DNA of 64,000 bases from Patescibacteria group bacterium (GCA_038062455.1 JBBTXE010000001.1:186371-250370), one strand, 5' to 3'. Positions 6,004 to 47,660 are shown, counted from the first letter of the stretch. Notes: generated by a model not told the origin, from the letters alone. A program made the numbers and translations.

Positions 6004-7491
6004 GTGAATTTCAAAAAAAATCGTCAACCAGAAATTAGCTTGTTTCTCCTTTTTCTTCTAGCGATTGCCCTCCCTTTTTCATTTAAAGCCTCAAGGAATG
6101 TTGCTAATGTTTATCAATATGCAACTAATCCCCTTGGCGTTGCCACTACCACCCCCCTTCCAACTTTGGGGTTAGGGGAACTAAATAACATAAAAATCTT
6201 TATCACCGATCCGATCTATTCCACCGCTACATCCCCAAATTTTACTCGGGTTACCTTTCATGTTACCGGTATTGGAGTTTCCAGTTTTAATTCACTCACC
6301 GGTAAATATTACTATGGTAGTACTCCTAAAACATTTACCTTGACTAAGGTTGGAACAGAGTTATCCGGCCGGATTGATTTATATGGCCCCGACATTATTG
6401 AGTTTTACAGCCCCAATGGGCTTTATCTTGCCTCTCTTTGTCTGGCAACCAACATGTATGGCATTAATCAAGGTGATTATCTCTATGGTCCTAAATGCGG
6501 CAGCGTCGCCAATGTTCGTATTTTTTACAATTATCCCAACTATATATATAAAAATAAACTATCAGCTGTTGCCTATTCACTTCCCTACACCAAAATTCAA
6601 ACTCCTTCATTTAAACCTACAAACGTATTTTTTATTCTCCAAAGCCCAACCGGTTTTACCAACGTCGAACCATGGATTACTCCAAACAATTCCTCTATGT
6701 GTAGCCAACCGACAGCTAAAATGATGGTTTTCAGCTCTTTTGAAGACACTTCACCTCAATATTACGATCTTATTAATGCCTATTCCTGCATGTTTCGAAC
6801 CCCCTATGGCCAACCCTTAAATGAATTTATATTTAACAATAAATATTTAACCATCCTACCCTGGTTCGGTCCTACTCCATCTCCGATTCCTACAATTACT
6901 CCAACCCCTACTCCCACTCCAACCTCAATACCTACACCGACACCACAACAATTTATTAAAGTTGACGCCCCCAATGGTGGTGAAATTTTGACTGTCGGCT
7001 CAACTACCACAATTATTTGGTCCTCCGTCGGTATAACGTTAGTCAGCCTTGATTTGATTGATCAATCCGGTTTTGGTTCTGGTATTGCCCTGAACATTTC
7101 GTCTGTTCCCAATACTCTCACTTGGGTCGTTCAAAAAACCTACCACCAACCCAATCAATCCTGGTTCAAAATTCGAATTATCGGTGACCAGAATCCAAAC
7201 ATATCCGATCTATCCGATGATTATTTTACTATCAATAGCATTCTTCCTACACCAACCAATACCCCAATTCCCACAAGTACTCTTACACCTACCCCAAGAC
7301 CATCCAATATTCCTACTCTAACCCTTTCTCCCACCAAGCGTCCAACCCCCACTCCCACAAGGCGTCCTACACCTACTCCCACCATTAGAATTGGTCGCTG
7401 CGGTACTGCTTATCTTCGTTACTGCGCACTGCGGCATATGCTTTGCCAAAGAATAAACAACCGTGACACCTGCGTTCCCTATAAAAAATAG
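6004..7491 (+). CDS. Secreted protein with Pro/Thr-rich linkers and a Cys-rich C-terminus
   Basis: GTG start; N-terminal signal/TM (ISLFLLFLLAIALPF). Two PT linkers (PTPSPIPTITPTPTPTPTSIPTPTP; PTPTNTPIPTSTLTPTPRPS...RRPTPTPT) flank a beta-sandwich-like module (APNGGEILTVGSTTTIIWSS...DDYFTI). Four Cys in the last 30 aa. Confidence 0.6.
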   Translation: MNFKKNRQPEISLFLLFLLAIALPFSFKASRNVANVYQYATNPLGVATTTPLPTLGLGELNNIKIFITDPIYSTATSPNFTRVTFHVTGIGVSSFNSLTGKYYYGSTPKTFTLTKVGTELSGRIDLYGPDIIEFYSPNGLYLASLCLATNMYGINQGDYLYGPKCGSVANVRIFYNYPNYIYKNKLSAVAYSLPYTKIQTPSFKPTNVFFILQSPTGFTNVEPWITPNNSSMCSQPTAKMMVFSSFEDTSPQYYDLINAYSCMFRTPYGQPLNEFIFNNKYLTILPWFGPTPSPIPTITPTPTPTPTSIPTPTPQQFIKVDAPNGGEILTVGSTTTIIWSSVGITLVSLDLIDQSGFGSGIALNISSVPNTLTWVVQKTYHQPNQSWFKIRIIGDQNPNISDLSDDYFTINSILPTPTNTPIPTSTLTPTPRPSNIPTLTLSPTKRPTPTPTRRPTPTPTIRIGRCGTAYLRYCALRHMLCQRINNRDTCVPYKK

Positions 7492-7560: not shown

Positions 7561-7644
7561 CGTCATTGCGAGGGTAATACCAAAGCAATCACCACATTGT
7601 GGTATACGACTATATTAAGATTGCCACGCTTCGCTCGCAATGAC
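7561..7644. repeat. Imperfect palindromic element (GTCATTGCGAG...CTCGCAATGAC) between convergent genes
   Basis: Left arm cgtcattgcgagggtaataccaaagcaatc (7561..7590). Inner palindrome accacattgtggt. Right arm gattgccacgcttcgctcgcaatgac (7619..7644), the imperfect reverse complement of the left arm. Sits 6 nt from the argS stop, so it could act as a bidirectional terminator. Confidence 0.7.
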
Positions 7645-7650
7645 AAAAAC

Positions 7651-9963
7651 TCACATCTTTTCCAATATCTTTATTCCTAGTATCGTCAAACCGTCTTTAA
7701 TTATTTTAGCCGTCACTTTGGTCAAAAATAATCTCTGTTCTTCATGTGCTTCGCCGATAATCCGATGTTTTCCATAAAACTCATTATATTTCCGGGCTAA
7801 TATCAGCAAATATTCTGCCAACACTGCCGGAGAAAATCTATCCGCCGCCTCAACTATTTTTTCGCTATATTGATAAAAATACCGCAGTAGTGCCTTTTCC
7901 TCTTCATTAAATTCGTAATTTGTAATTCGTAATTCGTAATTGGTTTTGGCTTTAGCCAAAACGCTCCGGCATCTGGCATAGGTATATTGCAAATATGGTC
8001 CCGAATTTCCCTCCATACTCATCACTTTATCCCAATCAAAAATGATGTCCCTTTTGGGGTCAGCCGATAAATCATTAAATTTAATCGCTCCAATGGCTAC
8101 TGCTTCAATCTCCGCCTCAGTGTTTGTCGGGGCAATCTTTTTTGCCTGTTCTTTAGCCGTTTCTATTATTTCGGCCAAGTGGATTGTGTCACCTTTCCGA
8201 GTAGAAAATTTGCCTTCTTTCCAACGGATTAGACCATGCCCTATATGGATAAAACTATCTCCCCAGCCCATCAATCTGGCTGCCGCAAAAACTTGTTTAA
8301 AATGCAGGTTTTGTTCCGACCCCACCTCATAAATAATTAAATCCGGATTCCATTTTTCCTTTCTAAATTTGACCGTCGCCATATCCCGGGTAAAATAGGT
8401 TGTGGCTCCGTCGGACTTAAGAAGCATTGCCGGCGGAAGACTCTTCATCTCCACCATCAGTGCCCCCTCTGATTTCTTGGTTAGGCCTCCAGCCTTCATT
8501 TCTGAAATCACTTCCGGAAGCATTGGCAAATAAAACGCCTCACCGTAAGCATTATCTATTTTGACATCCAGCATTTCATAAACCCGGTTAAATTCATTCA
8601 TTGATATATCAACGCAATCCTGCCAGATTTTTTTAGCTTCTCCATTACCTTGTTCCAGTTTGGCAAACCAGGCTCGAGCCTCGTCCTCCAGTGTTTTATC
8701 AGTTTCGGCTTCTTCATGAAACTTCACATACAACTTTTCCAAGCCCTCAATTGTCTCCTCCATTCCCCAATGTTTAATTGCGGTAATCATTTTGCCAAAT
8801 TGAGTTCCCCAATCACCCAAGTGGTTGTCCCCGATGCATGTCCAACCTAAGGTTTGGTAAATATTGTAGAGTGCCTGACCGATGTTGGTCGACCGCAGGT
8901 GGCCTATCCCAAAGGGTTTGGCAATATTCGGGGCGCTGTAATCGATTACCATTGTTTTTCCTTTACCAATTTTTTTCAGCTCATCTTTTTGTTTACCGTT
9001 TAATATTTTTTCGGCCTCTTTTGCCAATACTTCTTGTTTCAGCCAGAGGTTTGAGAAACCGGTCACCTTATCCATTTTTTCAATAATATCCAAATCGGTT
9101 ACATCAACATCTCCCCGTATTGCAAAATCCCCAAAGTTATCCGCCGGATGGGTTATCGGTACACCAACTTTATCGTGTATATTTTTTGCCAGAAAATAAT
9201 ACTTCTTTTCCACCACTTTCTTTTCTATCTTATTTACTTCAAAATCAGCTAGTTTTTTTGATTCAAAATTAATCTCTGCTTCCGGATGATCTTTATTGAG
9301 AATCAAAATTTCCCCCTTACCTCCAAGATTCCTAGTCACATAGTCAATAAATTCTTCAGCAATTTTAACTAGTTCTTCTTTATTGCTTTCAAATCCATCC
9401 ATGACAAAATAGCCATTTTTAGATTCCGGAGTTAATTTAGTCCGATCACACTGTCGCCAGTTCCAAGATCGGCAGGTAACGTCTAGATCATCCCGCCAGA
9501 TCAATTCCCCTTCAAATGCTGGTTTACTTTTGGTTGAGCCAATGACCACCCATCTTTCCCCACCTTTGGCTAATGTTAGTACCAAGTTCCCGCAAGACTG
9601 ATCCAAATTTTCTCCGCCAAACGGTGTCAAATACTTGACACTAAAAGCATTGTAGGTATTAACAATGGTGTTAATATCGGGCAGCTTTGAACCTTCTAAA
9701 AGCCTCTTGGTTAGGGCTATGTGCGATGGTTCGGCTTCCTCGATGGCTCCAAAATCTTTAAACACTTTTCGGTATTCAGTTACTCTTTTATCTTTTTCCC
9801 ATGTTACCTTATCTATATTTTTTAAAAAATCGTTTTGCACTGTATCCAAAAACATGGCCGATTCTTCTCTTTTTATTCCGGCATTAAATCCGTAAACAAT
9901 CGGTACCACCTCCACCATCTCCGGAAATTTCTCAAATACCGTTTTATCAATTTTGAATTTCAT
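7651..9963 (-). CDS. argS: Arginyl-tRNA synthetase with N-terminal B3/B4 (PheRS-beta-like) domain
   Basis: 770 aa. The C-terminal ~520 aa are ArgRS (PNIAKPFGIGHLRS, DHLGDWGTQFGKM, GNSGPYLQYTYARCRS, DALR-type anticodon domain). The first ~235 aa match the COG3382 B3/B4 family pattern (LPDINTIVNTYNAFSVKYLTPFGGENLD...TCRSWNWRQCDRTKLT). Confidence 0.9.
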   Translation of the reverse strand: MKFKIDKTVFEKFPEMVEVVPIVYGFNAGIKREESAMFLDTVQNDFLKNIDKVTWEKDKRVTEYRKVFKDFGAIEEAEPSHIALTKRLLEGSKLPDINTIVNTYNAFSVKYLTPFGGENLDQSCGNLVLTLAKGGERWVVIGSTKSKPAFEGELIWRDDLDVTCRSWNWRQCDRTKLTPESKNGYFVMDGFESNKEELVKIAEEFIDYVTRNLGGKGEILILNKDHPEAEINFESKKLADFEVNKIEKKVVEKKYYFLAKNIHDKVGVPITHPADNFGDFAIRGDVDVTDLDIIEKMDKVTGFSNLWLKQEVLAKEAEKILNGKQKDELKKIGKGKTMVIDYSAPNIAKPFGIGHLRSTNIGQALYNIYQTLGWTCIGDNHLGDWGTQFGKMITAIKHWGMEETIEGLEKLYVKFHEEAETDKTLEDEARAWFAKLEQGNGEAKKIWQDCVDISMNEFNRVYEMLDVKIDNAYGEAFYLPMLPEVISEMKAGGLTKKSEGALMVEMKSLPPAMLLKSDGATTYFTRDMATVKFRKEKWNPDLIIYEVGSEQNLHFKQVFAAARLMGWGDSFIHIGHGLIRWKEGKFSTRKGDTIHLAEIIETAKEQAKKIAPTNTEAEIEAVAIGAIKFNDLSADPKRDIIFDWDKVMSMEGNSGPYLQYTYARCRSVLAKAKTNYELRITNYEFNEEEKALLRYFYQYSEKIVEAADRFSPAVLAEYLLILARKYNEFYGKHRIIGEAHEEQRLFLTKVTAKIIKDGLTILGIKILEKM
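7909..7941 (-). repeat. 7-nt tandem repeat (AATTACG x ~4.5) in frame inside argS
   Basis: Minus strand aattacg aattacg aattaca aattacg aattt encodes NYELRITNYEF at the junction to the anticodon-binding domain. Confidence 0.8.
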
Positions 9964-9972
9964 ATCTATATT

Positions 9973-10470
9973 TTACCCCAATAAATCTTTAACAATTTTA
10001 TAAATGTCAATTAAGGATGCGACATGGACGAAATTAACCCCGATTGTATCCGCTTCCTTTTTATAGTCTTTATCATCAAACCAATAAACATCATTCATAC
10101 TAATATGTGTTTTCTTCATGATCTCTTCAACCATAACGTGTTTTGGACAGTACCCTCGCCACAGTCTGACGTTGACAGAGTTTATGTCTATATATGGCCA
10201 CAATTTAAATAATTTTAGCGCCTCGACCACCATCGATTTTTGATTGTCACTAACAATTCCCGCAAGGTGACCCGTGTCGGATAATAATTTAAATACTTCC
10301 ACTATATTTTTTCCTAAGTAGATTTTTTGACCATCGATTTGTCTTAAAATCAATCTTGGATCAACAAATTTTAGTTTTGATGTTTTACTACTAATATAGT
10401 CTTTATTTTTGGTATGCCACAAAGTTTCATCAGCATCAAATAAAAATAGTTTTTTATTCATGTGTTTCAA
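9973..10470 (-). CDS. HAD-superfamily phosphatase, MDP-1-like
   Basis: 165 aa; motif I FDADETLW (DxDxT followed by LW, as in magnesium-dependent phosphatase-1); IVSDN; WFDDKDYK. Confidence 0.65.
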   Translation of the reverse strand: MKHMNKKLFLFDADETLWHTKNKDYISSKTSKLKFVDPRLILRQIDGQKIYLGKNIVEVFKLLSDTGHLAGIVSDNQKSMVVEALKLFKLWPYIDINSVNVRLWRGYCPKHVMVEEIMKKTHISMNDVYWFDDKDYKKEADTIGVNFVHVASLIDIYKIVKDLLG

Positions 10471-11815
10471 TAACTTTTAATAAAGTATTAATCAAACCGT
10501 ATTTTTTAAGCTCCTCCCAAGAGGGATTATTGAAGTTAAGCCCTTCCCAAACAGCTTCTCCTTCAAAAACATCTGAGTTTGGGTAAAACACTGTCGAGTA
10601 GGCCACTTTTCCGGCATACTCCATAGGAAACAATCTCTCTTGACCAAAATGATATTCTCGGATTTCAAAACTTTTACCCTTATGTCCGATACCGAATCTT
10701 TGACAATAATCGCCGTTAAGATTTGTTATTTTACCCACTAAGTTATTAGACAATCCGGCTAATTCTGAGGTCCAAGGTAGATGAATTGTCGAATTAAAAC
10801 TCCACAAATGACTTAATTTAGAAATTAAATCATCAAATTGAAAACAATATTTCTGGTCTGGTATTTTTCCTGATGCCAGATCTAAAAATAATCTATTTAA
10901 AAAATTAAATTCATATGATGGAGAATGAAACGCAGACCCTAAATCGACTATCCTTCCTTCCGCTTGGTAAGGCAGCCACTTTTTCATCTCGCTCCACGGT
11001 GGAATATAGGCACTGCACAACACACTCAGTCCTTCTGTTTCCGATTTGGACGTATTATCGATAGCCCGCTTCAGCATAAATACTTTTTTAGATATCACAC
11101 TATTATCTAGATTTTTTAAGGCTGGAATTTGGTCCAAAGAATTCTGGGTTAGCCAATAAAATATACCCATGCCCGGGTAATATCGCTTATCTTCTTTTAC
11201 TTTTAAGTCGACAAATGTAGGTAAATCAGTAGCCCAATTCCAGTCCCTATCTTTTCGTAGACCGCCAACTCCGGTTATGTTTCTGACCGTAATAATTGGT
11301 TTTCCTGTTAGGGTTAACCAGGTGAAATCTTCTAAATCTGGAACCATGGAATCAGTTTTGGTCACTCCGGGGAAAATAAAATCCTGACATCCGCCCAATT
11401 CCTGAGCCATTTGGCAAAAAAGTAAAGCAAATTTCCTGGATATTATCAGTTCTGATTTTACTGTTTTTAAAACTTGGTCGAAAGAAATATCAAGTCCTAG
11501 CAATTTAGCCTCATAAGTTAAACCGCCGACTAAAAATAATTCTCCAACCACCTTAGCCAGTTTTCGATGTGACTGGCAGGAATCATAGCCTGTTTCCAGA
11601 TAACCTACTTCTGGATCAGGTAAGTTATTTTTTACGGTACTAATTATTGCTTCAGCGTATTCAGGCCTTATAGTTTCTGTTTGTTTGTGTAGCCAAAATA
11701 AAGCTTCTTCTTGGCCATTATCGGTGCAAATATAGTCTTTGGCCCAATTTATATGCTCCTTAAGTTCCACCATCTGTTTTGGTGGAATATTCATTGTTTC
11801 TATTATATTTTTCAT
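10454..11815 (-). CDS. Hypothetical protein (453 aa from the first ATG)
   Basis: The ORF-track start at 11830 is a TTG lying inside the U-tract of the upstream terminator. The first ATG is at 11815 (MKNIIETMNIPP...). No motif I can recognise. 17-nt overlap with the downstream HAD gene suggests co-translation. Confidence 0.6.
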   Translation of the reverse strand: MKNIIETMNIPPKQMVELKEHINWAKDYICTDNGQEEALFWLHKQTETIRPEYAEAIISTVKNNLPDPEVGYLETGYDSCQSHRKLAKVVGELFLVGGLTYEAKLLGLDISFDQVLKTVKSELIISRKFALLFCQMAQELGGCQDFIFPGVTKTDSMVPDLEDFTWLTLTGKPIITVRNITGVGGLRKDRDWNWATDLPTFVDLKVKEDKRYYPGMGIFYWLTQNSLDQIPALKNLDNSVISKKVFMLKRAIDNTSKSETEGLSVLCSAYIPPWSEMKKWLPYQAEGRIVDLGSAFHSPSYEFNFLNRLFLDLASGKIPDQKYCFQFDDLISKLSHLWSFNSTIHLPWTSELAGLSNNLVGKITNLNGDYCQRFGIGHKGKSFEIREYHFGQERLFPMEYAGKVAYSTVFYPNSDVFEGEAVWEGLNFNNPSWEELKKYGLINTLLKVIETHE

Positions 11816-11825
11816 ATATTTTTTC

Positions 11826-12067
11826 AACAAAAAAGCCCCTTCGATTCCAATAGAAGATTGGAACCAAAGGGGCCAAAAAAGTTGGCGGTACCACCCTTTT
11901 TCAGTCTCTCAATAAAAATCCCCCTTGCGGAGGATGCCACTGAAATATTGAGAAACTCTCATTCTTCAGCGCTCCGTTGCCGACACGCTTTGCTTTCTTT
12001 ACGGTTTGCCTCCGTATCCCATTTTTGGGATCACCTCTCGGATCGCGACTCCGATTAAACGGTTTAT
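11826..12067 (-). promoter_or_regulatory. T-box riboswitch leader (terminator/antiterminator type)
   Basis: Minus-strand RNA contains AAAAAGGGUGGUACCGCC (plus 11885..11902), which matches the T-box consensus AAnnnGGGUGGNACCGCG. The antiterminator can be drawn as AGGG[UGGUACC]GCCAA-loop-UUGGC-CCCU. A competing terminator GCCCCUU...AAGGGGC (11835..11873) is followed by UUUUUU. A GNRA-capped hairpin AUCCUCC-GCAA-GGGGGAU (11918..11935) lies just upstream. Confidence 0.75.
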
Positions 12068-12073
12068 AACGAA

Positions 12074-12101
12074 ATTATAACCCATAATATAGTCGTGTCA
12101 A
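12074..12101 (-). promoter_or_regulatory. Sigma70-type consensus promoter for the T-box leader
   Basis: On the minus strand: TTGACA (12101..12096), 16-nt spacer, TATAAT (12079..12074). Predicted TSS near 12067. Confidence 0.6.
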
Positions 12102-12128
12102 TAGGGTAAATTATGCTAATATTAACTT

Positions 12129-12902
12129 GTGAAACCCATTTCCGAACTGACATCGAATCAAATATCTAATATTAAACTCATCTCTTTTGACAGTGATGGG
12201 GTTTTGGTCAAAAAGGGGACTGAACTCTCTCAAACCCAAGATGGCTCTTTCTCTCAAAGAACCAATTTTGTTTCACCTTCAGTATTGGACAGATTAAAAC
12301 TTCTTAAAAGACGCTTTCATATCGTTATCAATAGCGGTCGTAACAGTCTCTATCTTAGCCAAATTTATCAGGATATTCTCTGGGACAATGTCACTCTTAT
12401 CTCCGAAATCGGTGTCTTTCTTACCGGCCAGGGCTTCATGGTCCAAACCGAAAAAATGGATGATTATGAACTTGAAATTATCGCAAAAATCCGCGCCAAA
12501 TTAGGTAAATTAATCGGTGATCCCCGGGTCAAAGGTTTTGAACCCAAACAATTTTTGACCACTCTTCACTGTTTTTCCGAAGTTCCCGAAGTGGCTACAA
12601 TCGTCAAAGATTGTGATCCGGAAAATAAATTTTATTGTTGGTGGAATCTCGAGGCTTACGACATAAACTGTCAAAAATTTACCAAAATCAAGGCTCTGCT
12701 AAAACTACTATCATTGATGAAACTTAGTCCCTCCGAAGTTATGGTGGTTGGCAATGGTATTAACGATCGGGATTCGGTCACCTCCCAAATCCTCAACGTT
12801 TCCACCAATCCGTCAAACTTAATCGCTGACGATTATTCTATTGAGGGTGAACATCTCGGCGGTGAACTTCTTTTAGATCAACTTCTTCGGCTCATTTTCT
12901 AA
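12129..12902 (+). CDS. HAD-superfamily hydrolase (Cof/IIB-like)
   Basis: GTG start; motif I FDSDGVLV; motif IV VGNGINDRD; ~100-aa cap between them. Confidence 0.7.
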   Translation: MKPISELTSNQISNIKLISFDSDGVLVKKGTELSQTQDGSFSQRTNFVSPSVLDRLKLLKRRFHIVINSGRNSLYLSQIYQDILWDNVTLISEIGVFLTGQGFMVQTEKMDDYELEIIAKIRAKLGKLIGDPRVKGFEPKQFLTTLHCFSEVPEVATIVKDCDPENKFYCWWNLEAYDINCQKFTKIKALLKLLSLMKLSPSEVMVVGNGINDRDSVTSQILNVSTNPSNLIADDYSIEGEHLGGELLLDQLLRLIF

Positions 12903-14028: not shown

Positions 14029-14061
14029 TTTTTTCAATTTTCATTTTTTTGCATTTTTTAG

Positions 14062-14134
14062 TGACGCTACCGGGAGTCGAACCCGGGTTAGTAGAATGAG
14101 AATCTACTGTCCTAAACCACTAGACGATAGCGCC
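14062..14134 (-). tRNA. tRNA-Glu (anticodon CUC)
   Basis: 73-nt cloverleaf read by hand. Acceptor GGCGCUA/UAGCGUC; D stem GUCU/GGAC; anticodon stem GUAGA/UCUAC with loop UUCUCAU; T arm CCGGG-UUCGACU-CCCGG; discriminator A. CCA is not encoded. Confidence 0.85.
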
Positions 14135-20175: not shown

Positions 20176-22035
20176 ATGTCGGATCTCACCGATCAACGCC
20201 TCCAAAAACTGGCCGCTATCAAAAAACTAAAACTTGATCCCTATCCTCAACCCAACCTGGAAAAACGGGACTGGTGTCAGGAAGCTGCTCAAAAACTTGA
20301 TAAAATCGTTACTGTTGCCGGCCGTCTCCTGCTTCTCCGCGGCCACGGCAAAATTTTGTTTGCCGATCTTGTCGACAAAACCGGCAAAATCCAACTTTTT
20401 TTTGAACAAAACACTCTTGACGCTAAAATGGGTTTGGTTAAACTTTTAGATTTAGGTGACATTATTTCCGCCATCGGCACCGTTTTCAAAACTCAAGCCG
20501 GTGAAATTACCGTTCGGGTTTCTGAATTTCAAATTCTGGCCAAAAATCTCCGCCCTCTTCCGGAAAAATTTCATGGGCTGACCGATGTCGAGGAACGCTA
20601 TCGTCAACGTTACGTTGATCTGATTGTCAATCCTGCATCCCGGGAAGTTTTTCTCACCCGTAGCAAAATATTAACCGAAATGAGGCGTTTTTTTGACGTT
20701 CATGGCTTTTTGGAAGTCGAAACTCCCATCTTGCAGCCGGTCTATGGCGGCGCCTCGGCCAAACCTTTTGTCACCCGCCACCATGAATTAAATCAGGACA
20801 TGTATCTGCGGATTTCCGATGAACTTTATCTAAAACGCCTGATTGTCGGCGGTCTGGAAAAAGTCTATGAGGTTTCCCGGGATTTTCGTAATGAAAGTGT
20901 CTCCCGTTTTCACAATCCCGAATTTACTCAAGTCGAATTTTATTGGGCCTATGTTGACTATGAAGTCCTGATGCGTTTTACCGAAGAGCTGATCTCTCAT
21001 TTGGTCAATACCATCAAAGGTTCTTTAAAAGTCACTTTCCAAAACCAAACCATCGATTTTACCCCGCCATATCCGCGTCTCACTTTCCGCGATGCTGTCC
21101 TCAAATACACCAAAATTAACATCGACGATATTAATACCGAATCCGATTTTATTCATGCATTAGAAATTAGACATTTGAAATTAGAAATTACGGGGCTCAT
21201 TGGCTTAGGAGCCCTGTTCGACGCCCTCTACAAAGAATATGTTCGCCCCAAGCTAATCGGTCCGCTTTTCCTTACCGATTATCCTTCAGAAATGATTGCT
21301 CTGGCCAAAAGGAAAGCCGATGACCCCCGAAAAATTGCCTCTTTTCAGCTTTTAGCCTGTGGTACCGAGCTTTTAAAAGCCTACAATGAGTTAAATGATC
21401 CCCGGGATCAAAAAGACCGTTGGCTTCAGGAAGAAATCTTGGCCAAAAGGGGATTGGAATCGGCCATGCCGATTGATGATGATTATATTCGGGCCCTGGA
21501 ATACGGTATGCCGCCCACCGCCGGCTGGGGGATGGGTATTGACCGCTTCACCCAATTCTTAACCGACTCCCCTACTATCAAAGACGTAATTTTGTTCCCC
21601 TCCATGAAAAACGAAACCACCCCCGTCATTGCGACCCCCGGATCGTCATTGCGAGGTAATCCGAAGCAATCTCCACCGAGTGGCGAGATCATCATCGGTC
21701 AGGTTACGGAAATTAAAGATCACCCATCTGCTGAAAATTTAAAAGTTGTTATGGTCAAGGTTTCAGACTCCGATTCCCGCCAAATTGTCTGTGGAGCCGA
21801 TAATTATCAGGTTGGTGATCTTGTCCCGGTGGCTCTTCCCGGTACTACTGTTCCCACTCCCGATGGCGGTACTCAAGTTATTGCCAAGGTTAAACTTCGC
21901 GGTGTTGAATCTGACGGCATGCTCTGTTCACCCCTAGAAGTCGGCGCTTCCTCCGATCACACCACTATTCACATCCTTTCAAAAGAACTCGAAAAGCATC
22001 TGGGGAAACCTATTGTTGAATATCTGAAGGAATAA
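20176..22035 (+). CDS. lysS: Lysyl-tRNA synthetase (class II) with C-terminal tRNA_bind (Trbp111/CsaA-like) domain
   Basis: 619 aa. OB anticodon domain; class II motifs (RDFRNESVSRFHNPEFTQVEFY, GMGIDR). Extra ~115 aa C-terminal domain GQVTEIKDHPSAENLKVVMVKV...IVCGADNYQVGDLVPVALPG...KLRGVESDGMLCS. Confidence 0.9.
   Translation: MSDLTDQRLQKLAAIKKLKLDPYPQPNLEKRDWCQEAAQKLDKIVTVAGRLLLLRGHGKILFADLVDKTGKIQLFFEQNTLDAKMGLVKLLDLGDIISAIGTVFKTQAGEITVRVSEFQILAKNLRPLPEKFHGLTDVEERYRQRYVDLIVNPASREVFLTRSKILTEMRRFFDVHGFLEVETPILQPVYGGASAKPFVTRHHELNQDMYLRISDELYLKRLIVGGLEKVYEVSRDFRNESVSRFHNPEFTQVEFYWAYVDYEVLMRFTEELISHLVNTIKGSLKVTFQNQTIDFTPPYPRLTFRDAVLKYTKINIDDINTESDFIHALEIRHLKLEITGLIGLGALFDALYKEYVRPKLIGPLFLTDYPSEMIALAKRKADDPRKIASFQLLACGTELLKAYNELNDPRDQKDRWLQEEILAKRGLESAMPIDDDYIRALEYGMPPTAGWGMGIDRFTQFLTDSPTIKDVILFPSMKNETTPVIATPGSSLRGNPKQSPPSGEIIIGQVTEIKDHPSAENLKVVMVKVSDSDSRQIVCGADNYQVGDLVPVALPGTTVPTPDGGTQVIAKVKLRGVESDGMLCSPLEVGASSDHTTIHILSKELEKHLGKPIVEYLKE
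21160..21192 (+). repeat. 7-nt tandem repeat (TTAGAAA-like x ~4.5) in frame inside lysS
   Basis: ttagaaa ttagaca tttgaaa ttagaaa ttacg encodes LEIRHLKLEIT. Confidence 0.75.
21623..21690 (+). repeat. In-frame copy of the GTCATTGCGAG palindromic element inside lysS
   Basis: cgtcattgcgac ccccggat cgtcattgcgaggtaatccgaagcaatctcc..., versus the intergenic copy cgtcattgcgagggtaataccaaagcaatcacc at 7561. Translated as PVIATPGSSLRGNPKQSPPSGEII. Confidence 0.75.
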
Positions 22036-25756: not shown

Positions 25757-28432
25757 ATGCTCGGATTCATAACCAATCTCTTTGATGAAAATGCGAAGCG
25801 GTTAAAAACTTACCAACCTTTGGTTGACAAAATCAACTCCCTTGAACCAAAAACTAAAAAACTTACCGATAAACAACTATTAGTCAAAACCGATGAGTTT
25901 AAAAAACGATTAGCCAAAGATGAAACTCTTGACGATCTTTTACCCGAAGCCTACGCTGTCGTTCGCGAAGCCATCGGCCGGACTATTAATCAACGCGCCT
26001 TTGATGTTCAACTCATGGCCGCCATCGCTCTTCATCAGGGCTCCATCGCCGAACAACGCACCGGAGAGGGTAAAACCCATTCAGTTATCTTTCCCGCTTA
26101 CCTCAATGCCCTAACCGGCCTTGGAGTTCACATTATCACCCCCAACGACTATCTCACCCGCGTCGGCACCGGCTGGTACCCCCAAGCCCTCAATCTTCTG
26201 GGCGTTTCCACTTCGGCCATTGTCCACGAGGAATCCTTTATTCTTGATCCGAAATTTACCGACCCCAGTGAAACTGTTGATGATCGTCTGGCCCATCTTC
26301 GCCCTATTTCCCGTCAGGAAGCTTACCGCGCCGATGTTACCTATGGCACCAATAATGAATTTGGCTTTGACTATCTCCGCGACCACATGGTCAAAAACTT
26401 TAACCAAAAAGTTCAGCGCCCCGAATTCAATTTTGCCATTGTCGATGAAGTTGACTTTGTCCTAATTGACGAAGCCCGTACCCCGCTGATTATTTCTTCA
26501 CCCAATTCGGAGCCGGTCGATAAATACTATCAATTTGCCAAAATCGCCGCCCAGCTTCAACCGAACGATTACGTCGTTGACGAAAAATCCAAAAGCGCCA
26601 CCCTCTCTGAATTCGGCATCCGTCGCGTCGAAAAGATCCTTAATATCGGCAATCTTTACGAAGAATCTTTTGCCACCATCCATTATATTGAAAACGCCAT
26701 TAAGTCCCAAACTCTTTTTCACAAAGACAAAGACTATGTCATCAAAGACGGCGAAATTATTATTGTTGACGAATTCACCGGACGGCTGATGCACGGCCGC
26801 CGTTGGTCCGATGGACTTCATCAGGCCGTCGAGGCCAAAGAAAACGTCAAAGTTCAGCAGGAATCCCAAACTTGGGCCACCATTACTTTTCAAAATTATT
26901 TCCGGCTTTATAAAAAATTATCCGGCATGACCGGCACCGCCGCCACCGAAGCCGAAGAGTTTCGCAAAATTTACCATCTCGAAGTCGTTACCATTCCCAC
27001 TAATCAAAATCTGGTCAGAATTGACTCCGAAGATTTAATTTTCAAAAATCAGCGGGCCAAATATGCCGCTATCGCCGCCGAAGTCGCCAAACTTTACGCC
27101 AAAGGCCAGCCGGTCCTCATCGGCACCACCAGCATTGCTAAAAACGAAATTATTGCCTCCATGCTTAAAAACAAAGGCATACCTTTTCAACTATTAAATG
27201 CCAAAAACCATCGCTCCGAAGCTGAAATTATTGCCAAAGCCGGCAAATTAAAAGCCGTTACTGTGGCCACCAACATGGCCGGTCGGGGAGTTGACATTAT
27301 TTTGGGTGGCCCCAGTGACAAACAAAGCCCCAAAGATTGGCAAAAAGAACATAACGAAGTTGTTCGCCTCGGCGGCCTTTTCGTCATCGGTACCGAACGC
27401 CACGAATCCCGCCGTATCGACAACCAGCTCCGCGGCCGCTCCGGCCGTCAGGGAGACCCCGGTTTTTCTCAATTTCATGTGGCTCTGGACGATGATTTAA
27501 TGCGCATCTTTGGCGGCGACAAAATTTCCGGTCTGATGACCCGCTTTAATATGCCCGAAAACGAGGCCTTAACTCATCCTCTGGTTTCCCGGGTGTTGGA
27601 ACAAATTCAGGTCAAGGTCGAAGGTTACAATTTTGACATCCGCAAAAACCTGGTCGAATACGACGATGTTATCAACAAACAACGCCAAATTATTTACTCT
27701 CTTCGTGATAATACTCTCCAGCAGGCCAAACTAGATCCGGCCAAAAATAATCTAAAAATTGAAGAGGTTTTAGGCTCCGAAATCAGCCGTTTAGTCCTTA
27801 GTCTCCCTGATTCCGAAGCTCTGACTTTGGAATTTTCTGAAATTCTCCCGTTAAACCCCCTCGACCGCCGCCGTCTGGAAAAGGATTTGGCTACAGTTCC
27901 CGACAAATCCATTCATTTAACCAATATTCTTTTAGATCAATGGCAGGAGCGCCAGAAATATTTTGGCGAGACTATCGGTCACGATATTGTTACCTATGCC
28001 ATTATTGAAGCTCTCGATCCTCTCTGGGTCGGTCACCTCACCGCCCTTGATGATCTCCGCGACGGTGTCCGTCTCCGCGGTTACGCTCAAAAAGATCCTT
28101 TAATTGAGTATCGCAAGGAAGGTTATGAAATGTTTCAGGCTCTGATGCGCCGTTTTGAGGCCAATCTTTGCCGGATGCTCTTTCGCCTCGAACCTATCGA
28201 CCAACCGGCTTTTACCCCGCAACAAGCCACCGAAGCCCGCGGCGACATTCTCGACCCCAACGCTCCCGTTGAAGACGTAGCCACCGACATTGCCGACATA
28301 TCCGCCAAACAATCTTTATCCCGCGGTGCCTATGTGGAGCCTTCTTCTGCCCCCACCATTGGTCGTAATGATCCATGCCCCTGCGGTTCGGGGAAGAAGT
28401 GGAAAAAATGTCACTACCCACAACTTAGTTAA
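25757..28432 (+). CDS. secA: Preprotein translocase ATPase SecA
   Basis: ORF-track start 25733 is TTG; the conserved N-terminus is MLGFITNLF at 25757. DEVDFVLIDEARTPLIIS, MTGTA, TNMAGRGVDI; C-terminal Zn finger CPCGSGKKWKKCH. Confidence 0.9.
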   Translation: MLGFITNLFDENAKRLKTYQPLVDKINSLEPKTKKLTDKQLLVKTDEFKKRLAKDETLDDLLPEAYAVVREAIGRTINQRAFDVQLMAAIALHQGSIAEQRTGEGKTHSVIFPAYLNALTGLGVHIITPNDYLTRVGTGWYPQALNLLGVSTSAIVHEESFILDPKFTDPSETVDDRLAHLRPISRQEAYRADVTYGTNNEFGFDYLRDHMVKNFNQKVQRPEFNFAIVDEVDFVLIDEARTPLIISSPNSEPVDKYYQFAKIAAQLQPNDYVVDEKSKSATLSEFGIRRVEKILNIGNLYEESFATIHYIENAIKSQTLFHKDKDYVIKDGEIIIVDEFTGRLMHGRRWSDGLHQAVEAKENVKVQQESQTWATITFQNYFRLYKKLSGMTGTAATEAEEFRKIYHLEVVTIPTNQNLVRIDSEDLIFKNQRAKYAAIAAEVAKLYAKGQPVLIGTTSIAKNEIIASMLKNKGIPFQLLNAKNHRSEAEIIAKAGKLKAVTVATNMAGRGVDIILGGPSDKQSPKDWQKEHNEVVRLGGLFVIGTERHESRRIDNQLRGRSGRQGDPGFSQFHVALDDDLMRIFGGDKISGLMTRFNMPENEALTHPLVSRVLEQIQVKVEGYNFDIRKNLVEYDDVINKQRQIIYSLRDNTLQQAKLDPAKNNLKIEEVLGSEISRLVLSLPDSEALTLEFSEILPLNPLDRRRLEKDLATVPDKSIHLTNILLDQWQERQKYFGETIGHDIVTYAIIEALDPLWVGHLTALDDLRDGVRLRGYAQKDPLIEYRKEGYEMFQALMRRFEANLCRMLFRLEPIDQPAFTPQQATEARGDILDPNAPVEDVATDIADISAKQSLSRGAYVEPSSAPTIGRNDPCPCGSGKKWKKCHYPQLS

Positions 28433-46590: not shown

Positions 46591-47660
46591 TCGTTTTTCT
46601 TCTCCTTTTTTTCTTTTTTCCCCAGCCTCTTATTGCCGAAGACAATGTTGTAACTGAACTGACTAACCAAATAAATCAGCTTGATTTAAAACTACTTGAG
46701 CTTTCCCGGTCCAAAGACACTCTTAATAATCAAATTAAATATCTTGATACCCAGTATTCTCTCACCGAACTAAAAATCAGACAAACCGAAGCCAGTATTG
46801 TCCAGCTGCAAACCGAAATTGCCGATCTAACCATTAAAATAAAGGAACTCGATGTTTCCTTAAACCAACTGACCGCTGTTTTTATTGAACAGATTAACCA
46901 AAACTATCGCCTTAATAAACGTCTGCCCTACATTTCCATTCTTTTTACCGGAAATTTCAATCATTTTTTTGAACAATATAAATATCTTACCCGGGCCCAA
47001 AAAAGCAGTCAGGACACTCTGCTGGCAATGGAAACCGCCCGCAGTAATCTTGATACCCAAAAACAGATCAAATCCCAAAAACAAAAGGATCTCTCTGCCC
47101 TCGAAACCAAACTCGAGGCCCAGAAGAAGGATCTGGGCAACCAAAAGAACTCTAAATTGGTGTTATTAACTATCACCCGCAATGACGAAGCCCGTTATCG
47201 GAAACTCAAAACCCAAGCCGAAACCGAACTCTCCTCTCTTCTAGCCGCCAAATTTGTCGGCTCCCGAAAAGTCACTAAGGGTGAAGCTTTGGGTCTGATG
47301 GGTAATTCCGGCTATTCATTCGGCGACCACCTTCATTTTGGCCTATATAATCTTAAAGAAGATGATATATCAACCTGGAGCTATTTTAATGACATAGACG
47401 CGTTCGATTATTTAAAGAATCACGTTTGGCCCATGAACTCTCCTATAGAAATCACCCAGGAACGGGGACGGACTAAATACAGCTACCTTTATGCCGATCG
47501 TTTTCATCACGGCATCGACATGGTTTCCACCAATAAGACAGTCCGGACAGTTGAAAATGGAGTCGCCTATTTTTATCGCCACCCCAGCTCATCTCTGGGC
47601 AATCACGTTAAAGTTTTTCATCCCGACGGTAAAATGACCCTCTATCTCCACCTTCAGTAG
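46584..47660 (+). CDS. Coiled-coil M23 peptidase (EnvC-like)
   Basis: Prefer ATG 46584 (MVIVFLLLFFFF signal; overlaps the ftsX stop). Long coiled coil, then the M23 motifs HLHFGLY and HHGIDM. Confidence 0.8.
   Translation: MVIVFLLLFFFFPQPLIAEDNVVTELTNQINQLDLKLLELSRSKDTLNNQIKYLDTQYSLTELKIRQTEASIVQLQTEIADLTIKIKELDVSLNQLTAVFIEQINQNYRLNKRLPYISILFTGNFNHFFEQYKYLTRAQKSSQDTLLAMETARSNLDTQKQIKSQKQKDLSALETKLEAQKKDLGNQKNSKLVLLTITRNDEARYRKLKTQAETELSSLLAAKFVGSRKVTKGEALGLMGNSGYSFGDHLHFGLYNLKEDDISTWSYFNDIDAFDYLKNHVWPMNSPIEITQERGRTKYSYLYADRFHHGIDMVSTNKTVRTVENGVAYFYRHPSSSLGNHVKVFHPDGKMTLYLHLQ

What the first reader, a model, noticed from the sequence alone, without database searches (positions are those of the whole stretch)
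20176..22035. LysRS with a C-terminal tRNA_bind domain joined by a repeat-derived linker
The class II LysRS core ends near FPSMKNE. A ~115-aa Trbp111/CsaA/PheRS-B1-type tRNA_bind domain follows (GQVTEIKDHPSAENLKVVMVKV...KLRGVESDGMLCS). The ~24 residues in between (PVIATPGSSLRGNPKQSPPSGEII, nt 21623..21690) are encoded by 1.5 tandem copies of the left arm of the GTCATTGCGAGG-TAAT-CC-AAGCAATC palindromic element. That element also lies intergenically at 7561..7644. This suggests a mobile or recombinogenic repeat supplied the in-frame junction that fused the two domains. It is analogous to palindromic elements known to insert in frame in Rickettsia genes. Together with argS, two aaRS genes within 14 kb carry PheRS-beta-type accessory domains.
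Basis: partly seen in the sequence, partly recalled or inferred. Interest (0 to 1): 0.6.

Follow-up and report, generated by a model that had tools for sequence, protein, structure and literature searches.

The report
Selfish palindromic repeat inside LysRS linker
A lysyl-tRNA synthetase of an ultrasmall (CPR, Shapirobacteria-like) bacterium carries a 60-base mobile palindromic repeat inserted in frame in the floppy tether between its catalytic core and an older appended tRNA-binding domain. The repeat decorated the fusion and did not create it.

Summary
ORF 20176..22035 encodes a class II LysRS core plus a C-terminal Pfam tRNA_bind domain. Sixty bases of the linker (21625..21684) match the left unit of the intergenic palindrome at 7561..7645, with a score about 10 sd above shuffles.

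More than 90 of the 120 best-matching homologues listed (mostly unnamed; the named ones are Shapirobacteria or Patescibacteria) have the same fusion. These include close ones with a short linker and no repeat (P0014, P0015). The fusion therefore predates the repeat.

The repeat is one unit, preceded by a partial head, of a hairpin family. Its layout is (C/T)GTC-ATTGCGAG-[variable stem]-CGAAGCAAT-CNCCA. The family occurs in at least eight phyla and has the layout of the published CGTC-tagged REPs, which include Rickettsia RPE-4 and RPE-6.

The same 60-nt composite lies in frame in secA and in a VirD4-like gene of other metagenome contigs that carry this CPR-type variant. Related units lie in frame in uvrC, ligA and rlmN. 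About a quarter of fused LysRS homologues carry some unit of the family in this linker.

This is an RPE-like selfish insertion into a disordered, permissive linker. It is a new member of a known kind. The argS claim is also correct: that gene has an N-terminal B3_4 domain.

The parts
20176..22035 (+). lysS: class II lysyl-tRNA synthetase with a C-terminal tRNA_bind domain (619 aa)
   Evidence: ORF. Pfam domains. The exact protein is found on 9 independent contigs.
20308..20538 (+). N-terminal anticodon-binding OB fold (aa 45-121)
   Evidence: PF01336, E 7.9e-15.
20587..21606 (+). Class II catalytic core (aa 138-477), ending ...ILFPSM
   Evidence: PF00152, E 1.2e-83. Short-form homologues stop 2-3 residues after this point.
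21607..21687 (+). Interdomain linker (aa 478-504), predicted disordered
   Evidence: AlphaFold pLDDT is below 50 for residues 472-502 with no secondary structure; the flanking tRNA_bind domain scores about 90.
21625..21644 (+). Partial head copy of the repeat (GTCATTGCGACCCCCGGATC), encoding VIATPGS
   Evidence: The same partial head precedes the unit in L005 lysS, L153 secA and the L136 VirD4-like gene.
21644..21684 (+). Complete single repeat unit CGTCATTGCGAGGTAATCCGAAGCAATCTCCAC followed by CGAGTGG, which closes a CCAC/GTGG mini-hairpin. Encodes SLRGNPKQSPPSG. Together with the partial head it is a 60-nt (20-codon) insert relative to L008 and L010.
   Evidence: Alignment to the 7561 element scores 44-46 against 22.9 +/- 2.1 for shuffles. 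Absent from the orthologues L008 and L010.
21688..21975 (+). Trbp111/CsaA-type tRNA_bind OB domain (aa 505-600)
   Evidence: PF01588, E 4.5e-15. High-confidence beta-barrel in the model.
7561..7645 (.). Intergenic dimer of two inverted repeat units (a long imperfect palindrome) between convergent genes, 6 nt past the argS stop codon
   Evidence: Sequence. Fold -28.9 kcal/mol, z -5.65. An orthologous copy sits next to argS in L011. Flanking ORFs.
7651..9963 (-). argS: ArgRS (770 aa) with an N-terminal B3_4 domain (aa 74-197, nt 9373-9744)
   Evidence: PF03483 E 4e-18, PF00750, PF05746.

Best explanation
The gene is an ordinary bacterial class II LysRS. In an ancestor of this Shapirobacteria-like CPR group it acquired a C-terminal Trbp111-type OB domain. 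By analogy with other synthetases that carry this domain, the domain most likely holds tRNA in cis and lowers the Km for tRNA-Lys.

Later, a 60-nt composite of a dispersed hairpin repeat inserted in frame into the short flexible tether between the two domains. The composite is a partial head plus one full unit. The unit is (C/T)GTC-ATTGCGAG-[variable upper stem]-CGAAGCAAT-CNCCA, a REP-like element of the CGTC-tagged type. The insertion lengthened the tether from about 7 to about 27 residues.

The insert persists for three reasons: it is a multiple of three, it has no stop codon in this frame, and it encodes a hydrophilic Pro/Ser/Gly-rich peptide in a disordered region. It is therefore neutral, or nearly so, selfish DNA of the same kind as Rickettsia RPEs.

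Shown: the homology of the insert to the repeat family; its absence from close fused orthologues; its presence in other genes; the predicted disorder of the linker.

Inferred: the tRNA-tethering role of the domain; the neutrality of the insert; the means of mobilisation, which is unknown.
For: - Domain architecture.
- Insert matches the intergenic element far above chance.
- Insert-free fused orthologues sit in the same greA-lysS-...-serS-secA synteny.
- The fusion is widespread, in more than 90 of the 120 best homologues listed.
- The family is widespread and structured. At least 120 loci from at least 8 phyla matched. In 120 of 122 units ATTGC pairs with GCAAT beneath a covarying upper stem.
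- The same composite is in frame in secA and a VirD4-like gene. Other units are in frame in uvrC, ligA, rlmN and secA of relatives.
- Other LysRS lineages carry different units of the family at the same linker, confirmed at DNA level in L132, L133 and L134.
- The linker is predicted disordered.
- The insert alone has no stable RNA fold (z +0.7).
- Published precedent: CGTC-tagged REPs, which include RPE-4 and RPE-6, occur inside uvr, ligase and aaRS genes (PMC3733652). Trbp111-type domains are appended to aaRS, including Entamoeba LysRS (PMC11286949).
Against: - Presence of the insert does not follow the LysRS tree. P0014 has no insert yet is 94% identical to the insert-bearing P0001 in the core, while the window is only 85% identical to P0001. 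One gain must then be followed by clean losses, or by recombination between lineages. Neither was demonstrated.
- No transposase or target-site duplication was identified, so 'mobile' is inferred from distribution only.
- All three occurrences of the composite use the same reading frame although two frames are open. This could hint at selection on the peptide rather than pure neutrality.
- No biochemical data exist for this enzyme.
Confidence: 0.85

Rival explanations
1. One reading: a recombinogenic repeat provided the in-frame junction that fused a free-standing tRNA_bind gene to lysS.
For: - The repeat sits exactly at the domain boundary.
- About a quarter of fused homologues have some unit of the family there.
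- P0014 and P0001 are 94% identical in the core but 70% in the C-terminal domain, which would be compatible with a recombination breakpoint at the linker.
Against: - Fused orthologues without any repeat are the majority. They include the closest relatives and the outgroups.
- Unfused relatives have no tRNA_bind gene adjacent to lysS.
- The C-terminal domain evolves faster in every pair compared, so the identity drop is not specific evidence of recombination.
- The junctions of the B3_4 insertion in P0009 show no repeat remnant (score 15 against 12.3 +/- 1.9 for shuffles).
Confidence: 0.05
2. The linker peptide is a selected functional motif, for example a tether of tuned length or a protein-interaction motif. 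The DNA similarity to the intergenic element would then be secondary.
For: The same composite is read in the same frame in LysRS, SecA and a VirD4-like protein, giving near-identical peptides (VIA...SSLRGNPKQSPxSG). The insert has been retained across about 15% protein divergence between the window and P0001.
Against: - The family is conserved at nucleotide level, not peptide level. It is read as VIARSPRRSNLHSVG in uvrC and as RHCEKSSTKQSPQGG in rlmN, and it exists as non-coding intergenic palindromes.
- Close orthologues work without it.
- The region is predicted disordered.
Confidence: 0.07
3. Artefact: chance similarity, or a chimeric metagenome assembly collapsing on a repeat.
For: The source is evidently a metagenome-assembled CPR genome, and repeats can mis-join contigs.
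Against: - The similarity lies about 10 sd above shuffles.
- The identical 619-aa protein is encoded on 9 contigs from several independent samples with the same flanking genes.
- The sister allele P0007 is on at least 24 contigs.
- The reading frame is intact and both flanking domains are full length.
Confidence: 0.02

Closest known systems
CGTC-tagged REPs (Di Nocera, De Gregorio & Rocco 2013, BMC Genomics 14:522; PMC3733652), including Neisseria dRS3 and Rickettsia RPE-4/RPE-6
   Same: - 5' tag CGTC or TGTC.
- Stem starts with AT (ATT...AAT).
- Unpaired CCA-containing tail.
- Units often paired in inverted orientation to form a larger hairpin.
- Intergenic copies lie just past the 3' ends of convergent genes.
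- A minority lie in frame inside uvr genes, DNA ligase and tRNA synthetase genes, encoding 8-30 residues beginning VI... (their VIPAKAGI against VIASEAKQS / VIATPGS here).
   Different: - The stem here is bipartite: a 5-bp base, a GA/GAA internal loop, and a variable covarying upper stem of 2-7 bp. The described families have a simple 8-9 bp stem with a 4-5 nt loop.
- The exact sequence was not found in that paper's text or supplements.
- The host range seen here is mainly Chloroflexota plus CPR, not mainly Alphaproteobacteria.
- In the Shapirobacteria loci examined, most copies are intragenic.
Rickettsia palindromic elements (RPE; Ogata et al. 2000, from my own knowledge and as cited in PMC3733652)
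   Same: Palindromic selfish DNA inserted in frame into many unrelated housekeeping genes of a reduced-genome, host-dependent bacterium. The insertions sit at positions that do not disturb the fold.
   Different: RPE-1 is longer (about 100-150 bp) and restricted to Rickettsia. No sequence relationship to RPE-1 was tested here. Here the host is a CPR bacterium and the unit is 40-60 nt.
Trbp111/EMAPII-type OB domains appended to aminoacyl-tRNA synthetases (bacterial MetRS C-terminus, PheRS beta, human TyrRS, Entamoeba LysRS; PMC11286949)
   Same: A Pfam tRNA_bind OB domain fused to the C-terminus of a synthetase by a flexible linker. Its presumed role is as a cis-acting tRNA-binding cofactor.
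   Different: The host enzyme is a bacterial class II LysRS. The papers I read name this fusion only for Entamoeba. tRNA binding by this domain is untested.
Bacterial MITEs (Correia/NEMIS, Nezha, RUP, ERIC)
   Same: Short non-autonomous inverted-repeat elements dispersed in many copies, occasionally in frame in genes.
   Different: No terminal inverted repeats of an identifiable IS, no target-site duplication seen, and a much smaller unit. The family spans many phyla with conserved head and tail sequences.

Membership tests
CGTC-tagged REP superfamily (PMC3733652) | Unpaired terminal tetranucleotide CGTC (variants TGTC/CCTC) at one end | tested here: met
   Among 122 units the tag is TGTC in 88, CGTC in 24 and other in 10. 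All Shapirobacteria copies seen have CGTC.
CGTC-tagged REP superfamily (PMC3733652) | Stem whose first two positions are complementary A-T pairs | tested here: met
   ATTGC...GCAAT pairs in 120 of 122 minimum-free-energy folds.
CGTC-tagged REP superfamily (PMC3733652) | Simple 8-9 bp stem with a 4-5 nt loop | tested here: not met
   The unit has a 5-bp base stem, a conserved GA/GAA internal loop, and a variable upper stem and loop of 6-30 nt. It would have to be a further family, not CGTC-1 to CGTC-4.
CGTC-tagged REP superfamily (PMC3733652) | Short unpaired tail fitting CCA | tested here: met
   C(T/C/A)CCAC follows GCAAT in the copies collected. This was partly imposed by the search pattern, but it is also present in the window copies found without it.
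CGTC-tagged REP superfamily (PMC3733652) | Frequent inverted dimers; intergenic copies close to the 3' ends of convergent or co-directional ORFs | tested here: met
   56 of 97 evaluable copies are inverted dimers. The window dimer lies between convergent ORFs, 6 nt from the argS stop.
CGTC-tagged REP superfamily (PMC3733652) | No dedicated RAYT-type transposase | not tested
   The window ORFs were not screened for Y1 transposases.
Rickettsia palindromic elements (RPE) | In-frame insertion of the same repeat into several unrelated protein-coding genes | tested here: met
   lysS, secA, a VirD4-like gene, uvrC, ligA and rlmN.
Rickettsia palindromic elements (RPE) | Sequence homology to an RPE consensus; Rickettsia host | not testable with these tools
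   No RPE consensus was available. The host here is a CPR bacterium (names of homologues). The element works like an RPE and is not claimed as a member.
Class II (IIb) lysyl-tRNA synthetase | N-terminal anticodon-binding OB fold plus a class II D/K/N catalytic domain above Pfam thresholds | tested here: met
   PF01336 scores 55 bits (cut-off 27) and PF00152 scores 281 bits (cut-off 25). Homologues are annotated lysine--tRNA ligase.
tRNA_bind (Trbp111/CsaA/EMAPII) domain | Match to PF01588 above the gathering score; OB beta-barrel | tested here: met
   56 bits against a cut-off of 27, aa 505-600. All-beta model with pLDDT about 90. tRNA binding itself was not tested.

The most novel reading that the evidence does not exclude
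Shapirobacteria (CPR) would be a second, independent case, after Rickettsia, of a reduced-genome bacterium whose essential genes are colonised in frame by a palindromic selfish element. The genes affected are LysRS, SecA, UvrC, LigA, RlmN and a VirD4-like ATPase. The element belongs to an undescribed, pan-phylum branch of CGTC-tagged REPs whose head and tail are conserved at nucleotide level from Chloroflexota to Proteobacteria. This implies either a shared host factor or transposase that recognises it, or frequent horizontal spread. The interdomain linker of LysRS-tRNA_bind would be a recurrent landing or retention site, and possibly a recombination breakpoint contributing to the shuffling of aaRS accessory domains in this group.
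Probability: 0.35. Interest if true: 0.65.

Novelty: new member of a known kind. Interest (0 to 1): 0.45.

Why it matters
- It corrects an attractive but wrong story: the repeat did not create the domain fusion. It also gives a clean natural experiment, since near-identical enzymes exist with a 7-residue or a 27-34-residue tether.
- It shows that RPE-like 'selfish DNA in proteins' is not a Rickettsia peculiarity. It also occurs in CPR bacteria, where intergenic space is scarce.
- It flags a very widespread REP-like family that generates spurious peptide motifs in metagenome proteins (VIASEAKQS, SLRG..., ...LAMT) and may break assemblies.
- For annotation, such linker segments should be recognised as repeat-derived and not as conserved motifs.

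Tried and rejected
- Rfam, at gathering and permissive thresholds, finds no family for the 7561 element. The only hit in the window is tRNA-Glu.
- A literature search for the raw 11-mer returned only unrelated primers. Searches combining CPR/Patescibacteria with REP terms found nothing relevant.
- The exact sequence and its peptides are not in the text or supplements of PMC3733652.
- The fifth 11-mer hit, at 47176, has no extended similarity and is a chance match.
- I looked for a degenerate repeat remnant at the B3_4 insertion junction of P0009/L011. It was not significant.
- I tested whether the drop in identity after the linker between L005 and L010 proves recombination. The C-terminal domain is faster-evolving in all pairs, so this is inconclusive.
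- The mRNA around the insert has no unusual fold (z +0.7), so a structural RNA role for the intragenic copy is unlikely.
- I suspected that the partial NCBI LysRS P0091 ends at a contig break caused by the repeat. I could not verify this in L092 and dropped it.
- uvrC is not in the window. The window's secA (25757..28423) has no unit of the family.

Full report
**The gene**

The ORF at 20176..22035 (+) encodes 619 residues. Pfam places an anticodon-binding OB fold at residues 45-121, the class II D/K/N catalytic domain at 138-477 (E 1e-83) and a tRNA_bind (Trbp111/CsaA type) domain at 505-600 (E 4.5e-15). The identical protein is encoded on nine contigs from several independent samples with the same neighbours: sortase, greA, lysS, small ORFs, serS, secA. 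It is therefore not an assembly artefact. Named homologues are Candidatus Shapirobacteria / Patescibacteria lysine--tRNA ligases.

**The repeat observation**

GTCATTGCGAG, allowing one mismatch, occurs at 7562 (+), 7634 (-), 21625 (+) and 21645 (+). A fifth hit at 47176 has no extended similarity and is chance. Shuffles predict 0.56 hits.

The lysS segment CGTCATTGCGA-GGTAAT-CCGAAGCAATCTCCAC aligns to the left half of the 7561 element with 31 of 33 identities and two single-base gaps, score 44-46. Shuffled versions of the query reach at best 22.9 +/- 2.1 anywhere in the window.

The element at 7561..7645 is an imperfect palindrome that folds at -28.9 kcal/mol (z -5.65). It lies between convergent genes, 6 nt beyond the argS stop codon.

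**Did the repeat make the fusion? No.**

- More than 90 of the 120 best homologues listed have the LysRS+tRNA_bind architecture, at 59-82% identity.
- In the same syntenic locus, the close relatives P0014 (L010) and P0015 (L008) join the domains by ...MKNENTTIKKEIIIG and ...MKNEKPATKEIIIG. Against them, the window has exactly 60 extra bases (21625..21684, 20 codons). The sister allele P0007 (L005) has the same insert plus 21 nt of inner hairpin.
- Outgroups also have short linkers without the repeat.
- In relatives that lack the domain (P0101, P0097), no tRNA_bind gene lies beside lysS.

The fusion is therefore older, and the repeat landed in a pre-existing tether. AlphaFold models residues 472-502 with pLDDT below 50 and no secondary structure, while the OB domain behind it scores about 90. 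The insert alone has no unusual RNA fold.

**What the repeat is**

A scan of one genome per species for GTCATTGCGAG-N6-30-AAGCAATCNCCAC stopped at its 120-locus limit. Most hits were in Chloroflexota. Others were in Alpha-, Delta- and Gammaproteobacteria, Planctomycetota, Bacteroidota, KSB1, Nitrospinota, Armatimonadota, Stahlbacteria and one Shapirobacteria genome.

The unit has this layout:
- a (C/T)GTC tag;
- ATTGCGAG;
- a variable segment;
- CGAAGCAAT;
- a C(N)CCA tail.

In 120 of 122 units the minimum-energy fold pairs ATTGC with GCAAT. Above that base stem lie a conserved GA/GAA internal loop and an upper stem whose sequence differs between copies but stays complementary. More than half of the copies are inverted dimers like the one at 7561.

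This is the layout that Di Nocera et al. (PMC3733652) described for CGTC-tagged REPs:
- a CGTC or TGTC tag;
- a stem starting with AT;
- a CCA tail;
- inverted dimers;
- location just 3' of convergent genes;
- no dedicated transposase;
- a minority of copies in frame inside uvr, ligase and tRNA-synthetase genes.

Rickettsia RPE-4 and RPE-6 and Neisseria dRS3 are members. The stem here is bipartite, unlike the simple 8-9 bp stem with a 4-5 nt loop of the described families. The exact sequence is also absent from that paper. I therefore treat it as a further family of that kind, not as one of CGTC-1 to CGTC-4.

**Evidence that it behaves like an RPE in this lineage**

- The same 60-nt composite (partial head plus unit) is in frame in the C-terminal linker of SecA on L153, as VIASDGSSLRGNPKQSPQSG just before the GRNDPCWCG zinc motif.
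- It is also in frame in a TrwB/VirD4-like ATPase on L136 and eight further loci with the same insertion, as VIANEKSSLRDNPKQSPQSG followed by a right-hand unit.
- Other units are in frame in uvrC (L005, L010: VIARSPRRSNLHSVG), in NAD-dependent DNA ligase (L128: a full dimer, VIARSETTKQSPQCGDRHTSLVMT), in an RlmN-like radical SAM enzyme (L092) and in secA of L132.
- Different reading frames of the same DNA give different peptides. The conserved entity is therefore the DNA, not the peptide.
- Among about 100 fused LysRS homologues, about 27 carry a peptide of this family in the linker (VIASEAKQS, SLRGASGDAAIS, VIASASEAIS, and others). Three of these were confirmed at DNA level (L132, L133, L134).
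- The linker is thus a recurrent site where such inserts land or are tolerated. Other palindrome-type peptides (VGTDPRVCSS, SASGGRNE) occur there too.

**Open points**

The insert is phylogenetically patchy. In neighbour-joining trees the window groups with P0009 (no repeat, but a B3_4 domain inserted). P0014 (no repeat) is 94% identical in the core to the repeat-bearing P0001 clade. The window and P0001 share the idiosyncratic composite, so a single origin followed by clean loss, or transfer of the allele by homologous recombination, is more likely than two identical insertions. I could not distinguish between these. The identity drop after the linker is seen in all pairs, because the OB domain evolves faster. 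What mobilises the family is unknown.

**Mechanism, with its status**

The catalytic core charges tRNA-Lys (family membership shown, activity inferred). The appended OB domain probably binds tRNA in cis. Trbp111 recognises the 3' CCA end, and such fusions enhance aminoacylation in MetRS and in Entamoeba (PMC11286949). This role is inferred. The 20 repeat-encoded residues merely lengthen a disordered tether. That is inferred from predicted disorder, from dispensability in close orthologues, and from the variety of inserts tolerated at this point.

**The argS remark**

It is correct. The 770-aa ArgRS (7651..9963, -) has an N-terminal B3_4 domain. In the relative L011, ArgRS is 521 aa without it, while LysRS (P0009) has a B3_4 domain between core and OB domain. 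P0029 and P0034 have B3_4 after the OB domain. The ArgRS copy is only 27% identical to the LysRS copies in P0009 and P0029, so this is not a recent hop.

**Verdict**

Most of that interest lies in extending in-frame REP/RPE colonisation of essential genes to CPR bacteria, and in exposing a very widespread, apparently unnamed REP-like family.

Noticed in passing
window 7651..9963 (-); L011 95..1660 and 10001..12535; P0029, P0034: The PheRS-beta B3_4 domain sits on different synthetases in related genomes. It is at the N-terminus of ArgRS in the window, between core and tRNA_bind of LysRS in L011/P0009 (where ArgRS lacks it), and after tRNA_bind in P0029/P0034. The ArgRS copy is only about 27% identical to the LysRS copies.
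   Followed up: partly
L132 5219..6781 (-): A 520-aa class Ib synthetase (tRNA-synt_1b) is fused to a tRNA_edit (YbaK-like) domain in a Shapirobacteria genome. The counterpart in L158 is 362 aa without it. This is another appended aaRS accessory domain in the group.
   Followed up: no
Linkers of P0048, P0055, P0057 (VGTDPRVCSS-type) and P0047, P0051, P0057, P0074 (SASGGR(N/E)E-type): Other short peptides that look like translations of different GC-rich palindromic repeats occupy the same LysRS linker position in other lineages.
   Followed up: no
L005 7582, L010 724 (uvrC); L128 5785 (ligA); L092 1012 (rlmN-like); L132 17144 and L153 3374-3433 (secA); L136 4700-4739 (TrwB/VirD4-like): In-frame units of the same repeat family lie in six other housekeeping or secretion genes, in Shapirobacteria relatives and in metagenome contigs carrying the CPR-type variant of the repeat.
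   Followed up: yes
P0014 vs P0001 (L010 vs L005): The catalytic core is 94% identical but the tRNA_bind domain only 70% (DNA about 90% against about 71%), with the change at the linker. This may be fast evolution of the OB domain or a recombination breakpoint.
   Followed up: partly
window 6876..7382, inside ORF 6004..7491 (+): Degenerate direct repeats rich in ACTCC/ACCCC (a Pro/Thr-rich stretch) in a 495-aa ORF with only a weak Kre9_KNH-like hit. It is probably a PT-linker of a surface protein.
   Followed up: no
window 14061..14134 (-): tRNA-Glu (CTC) is the only RNA gene detected in the window by ARAGORN and Rfam.
   Followed up: no
L130 4834 / L154 5265-5305: A single repeat unit is followed directly by a canonical GC-hairpin plus T-run terminator in a Shapirobacteria intergenic region. 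This suggests intergenic copies sit at transcript 3' ends.
   Followed up: no
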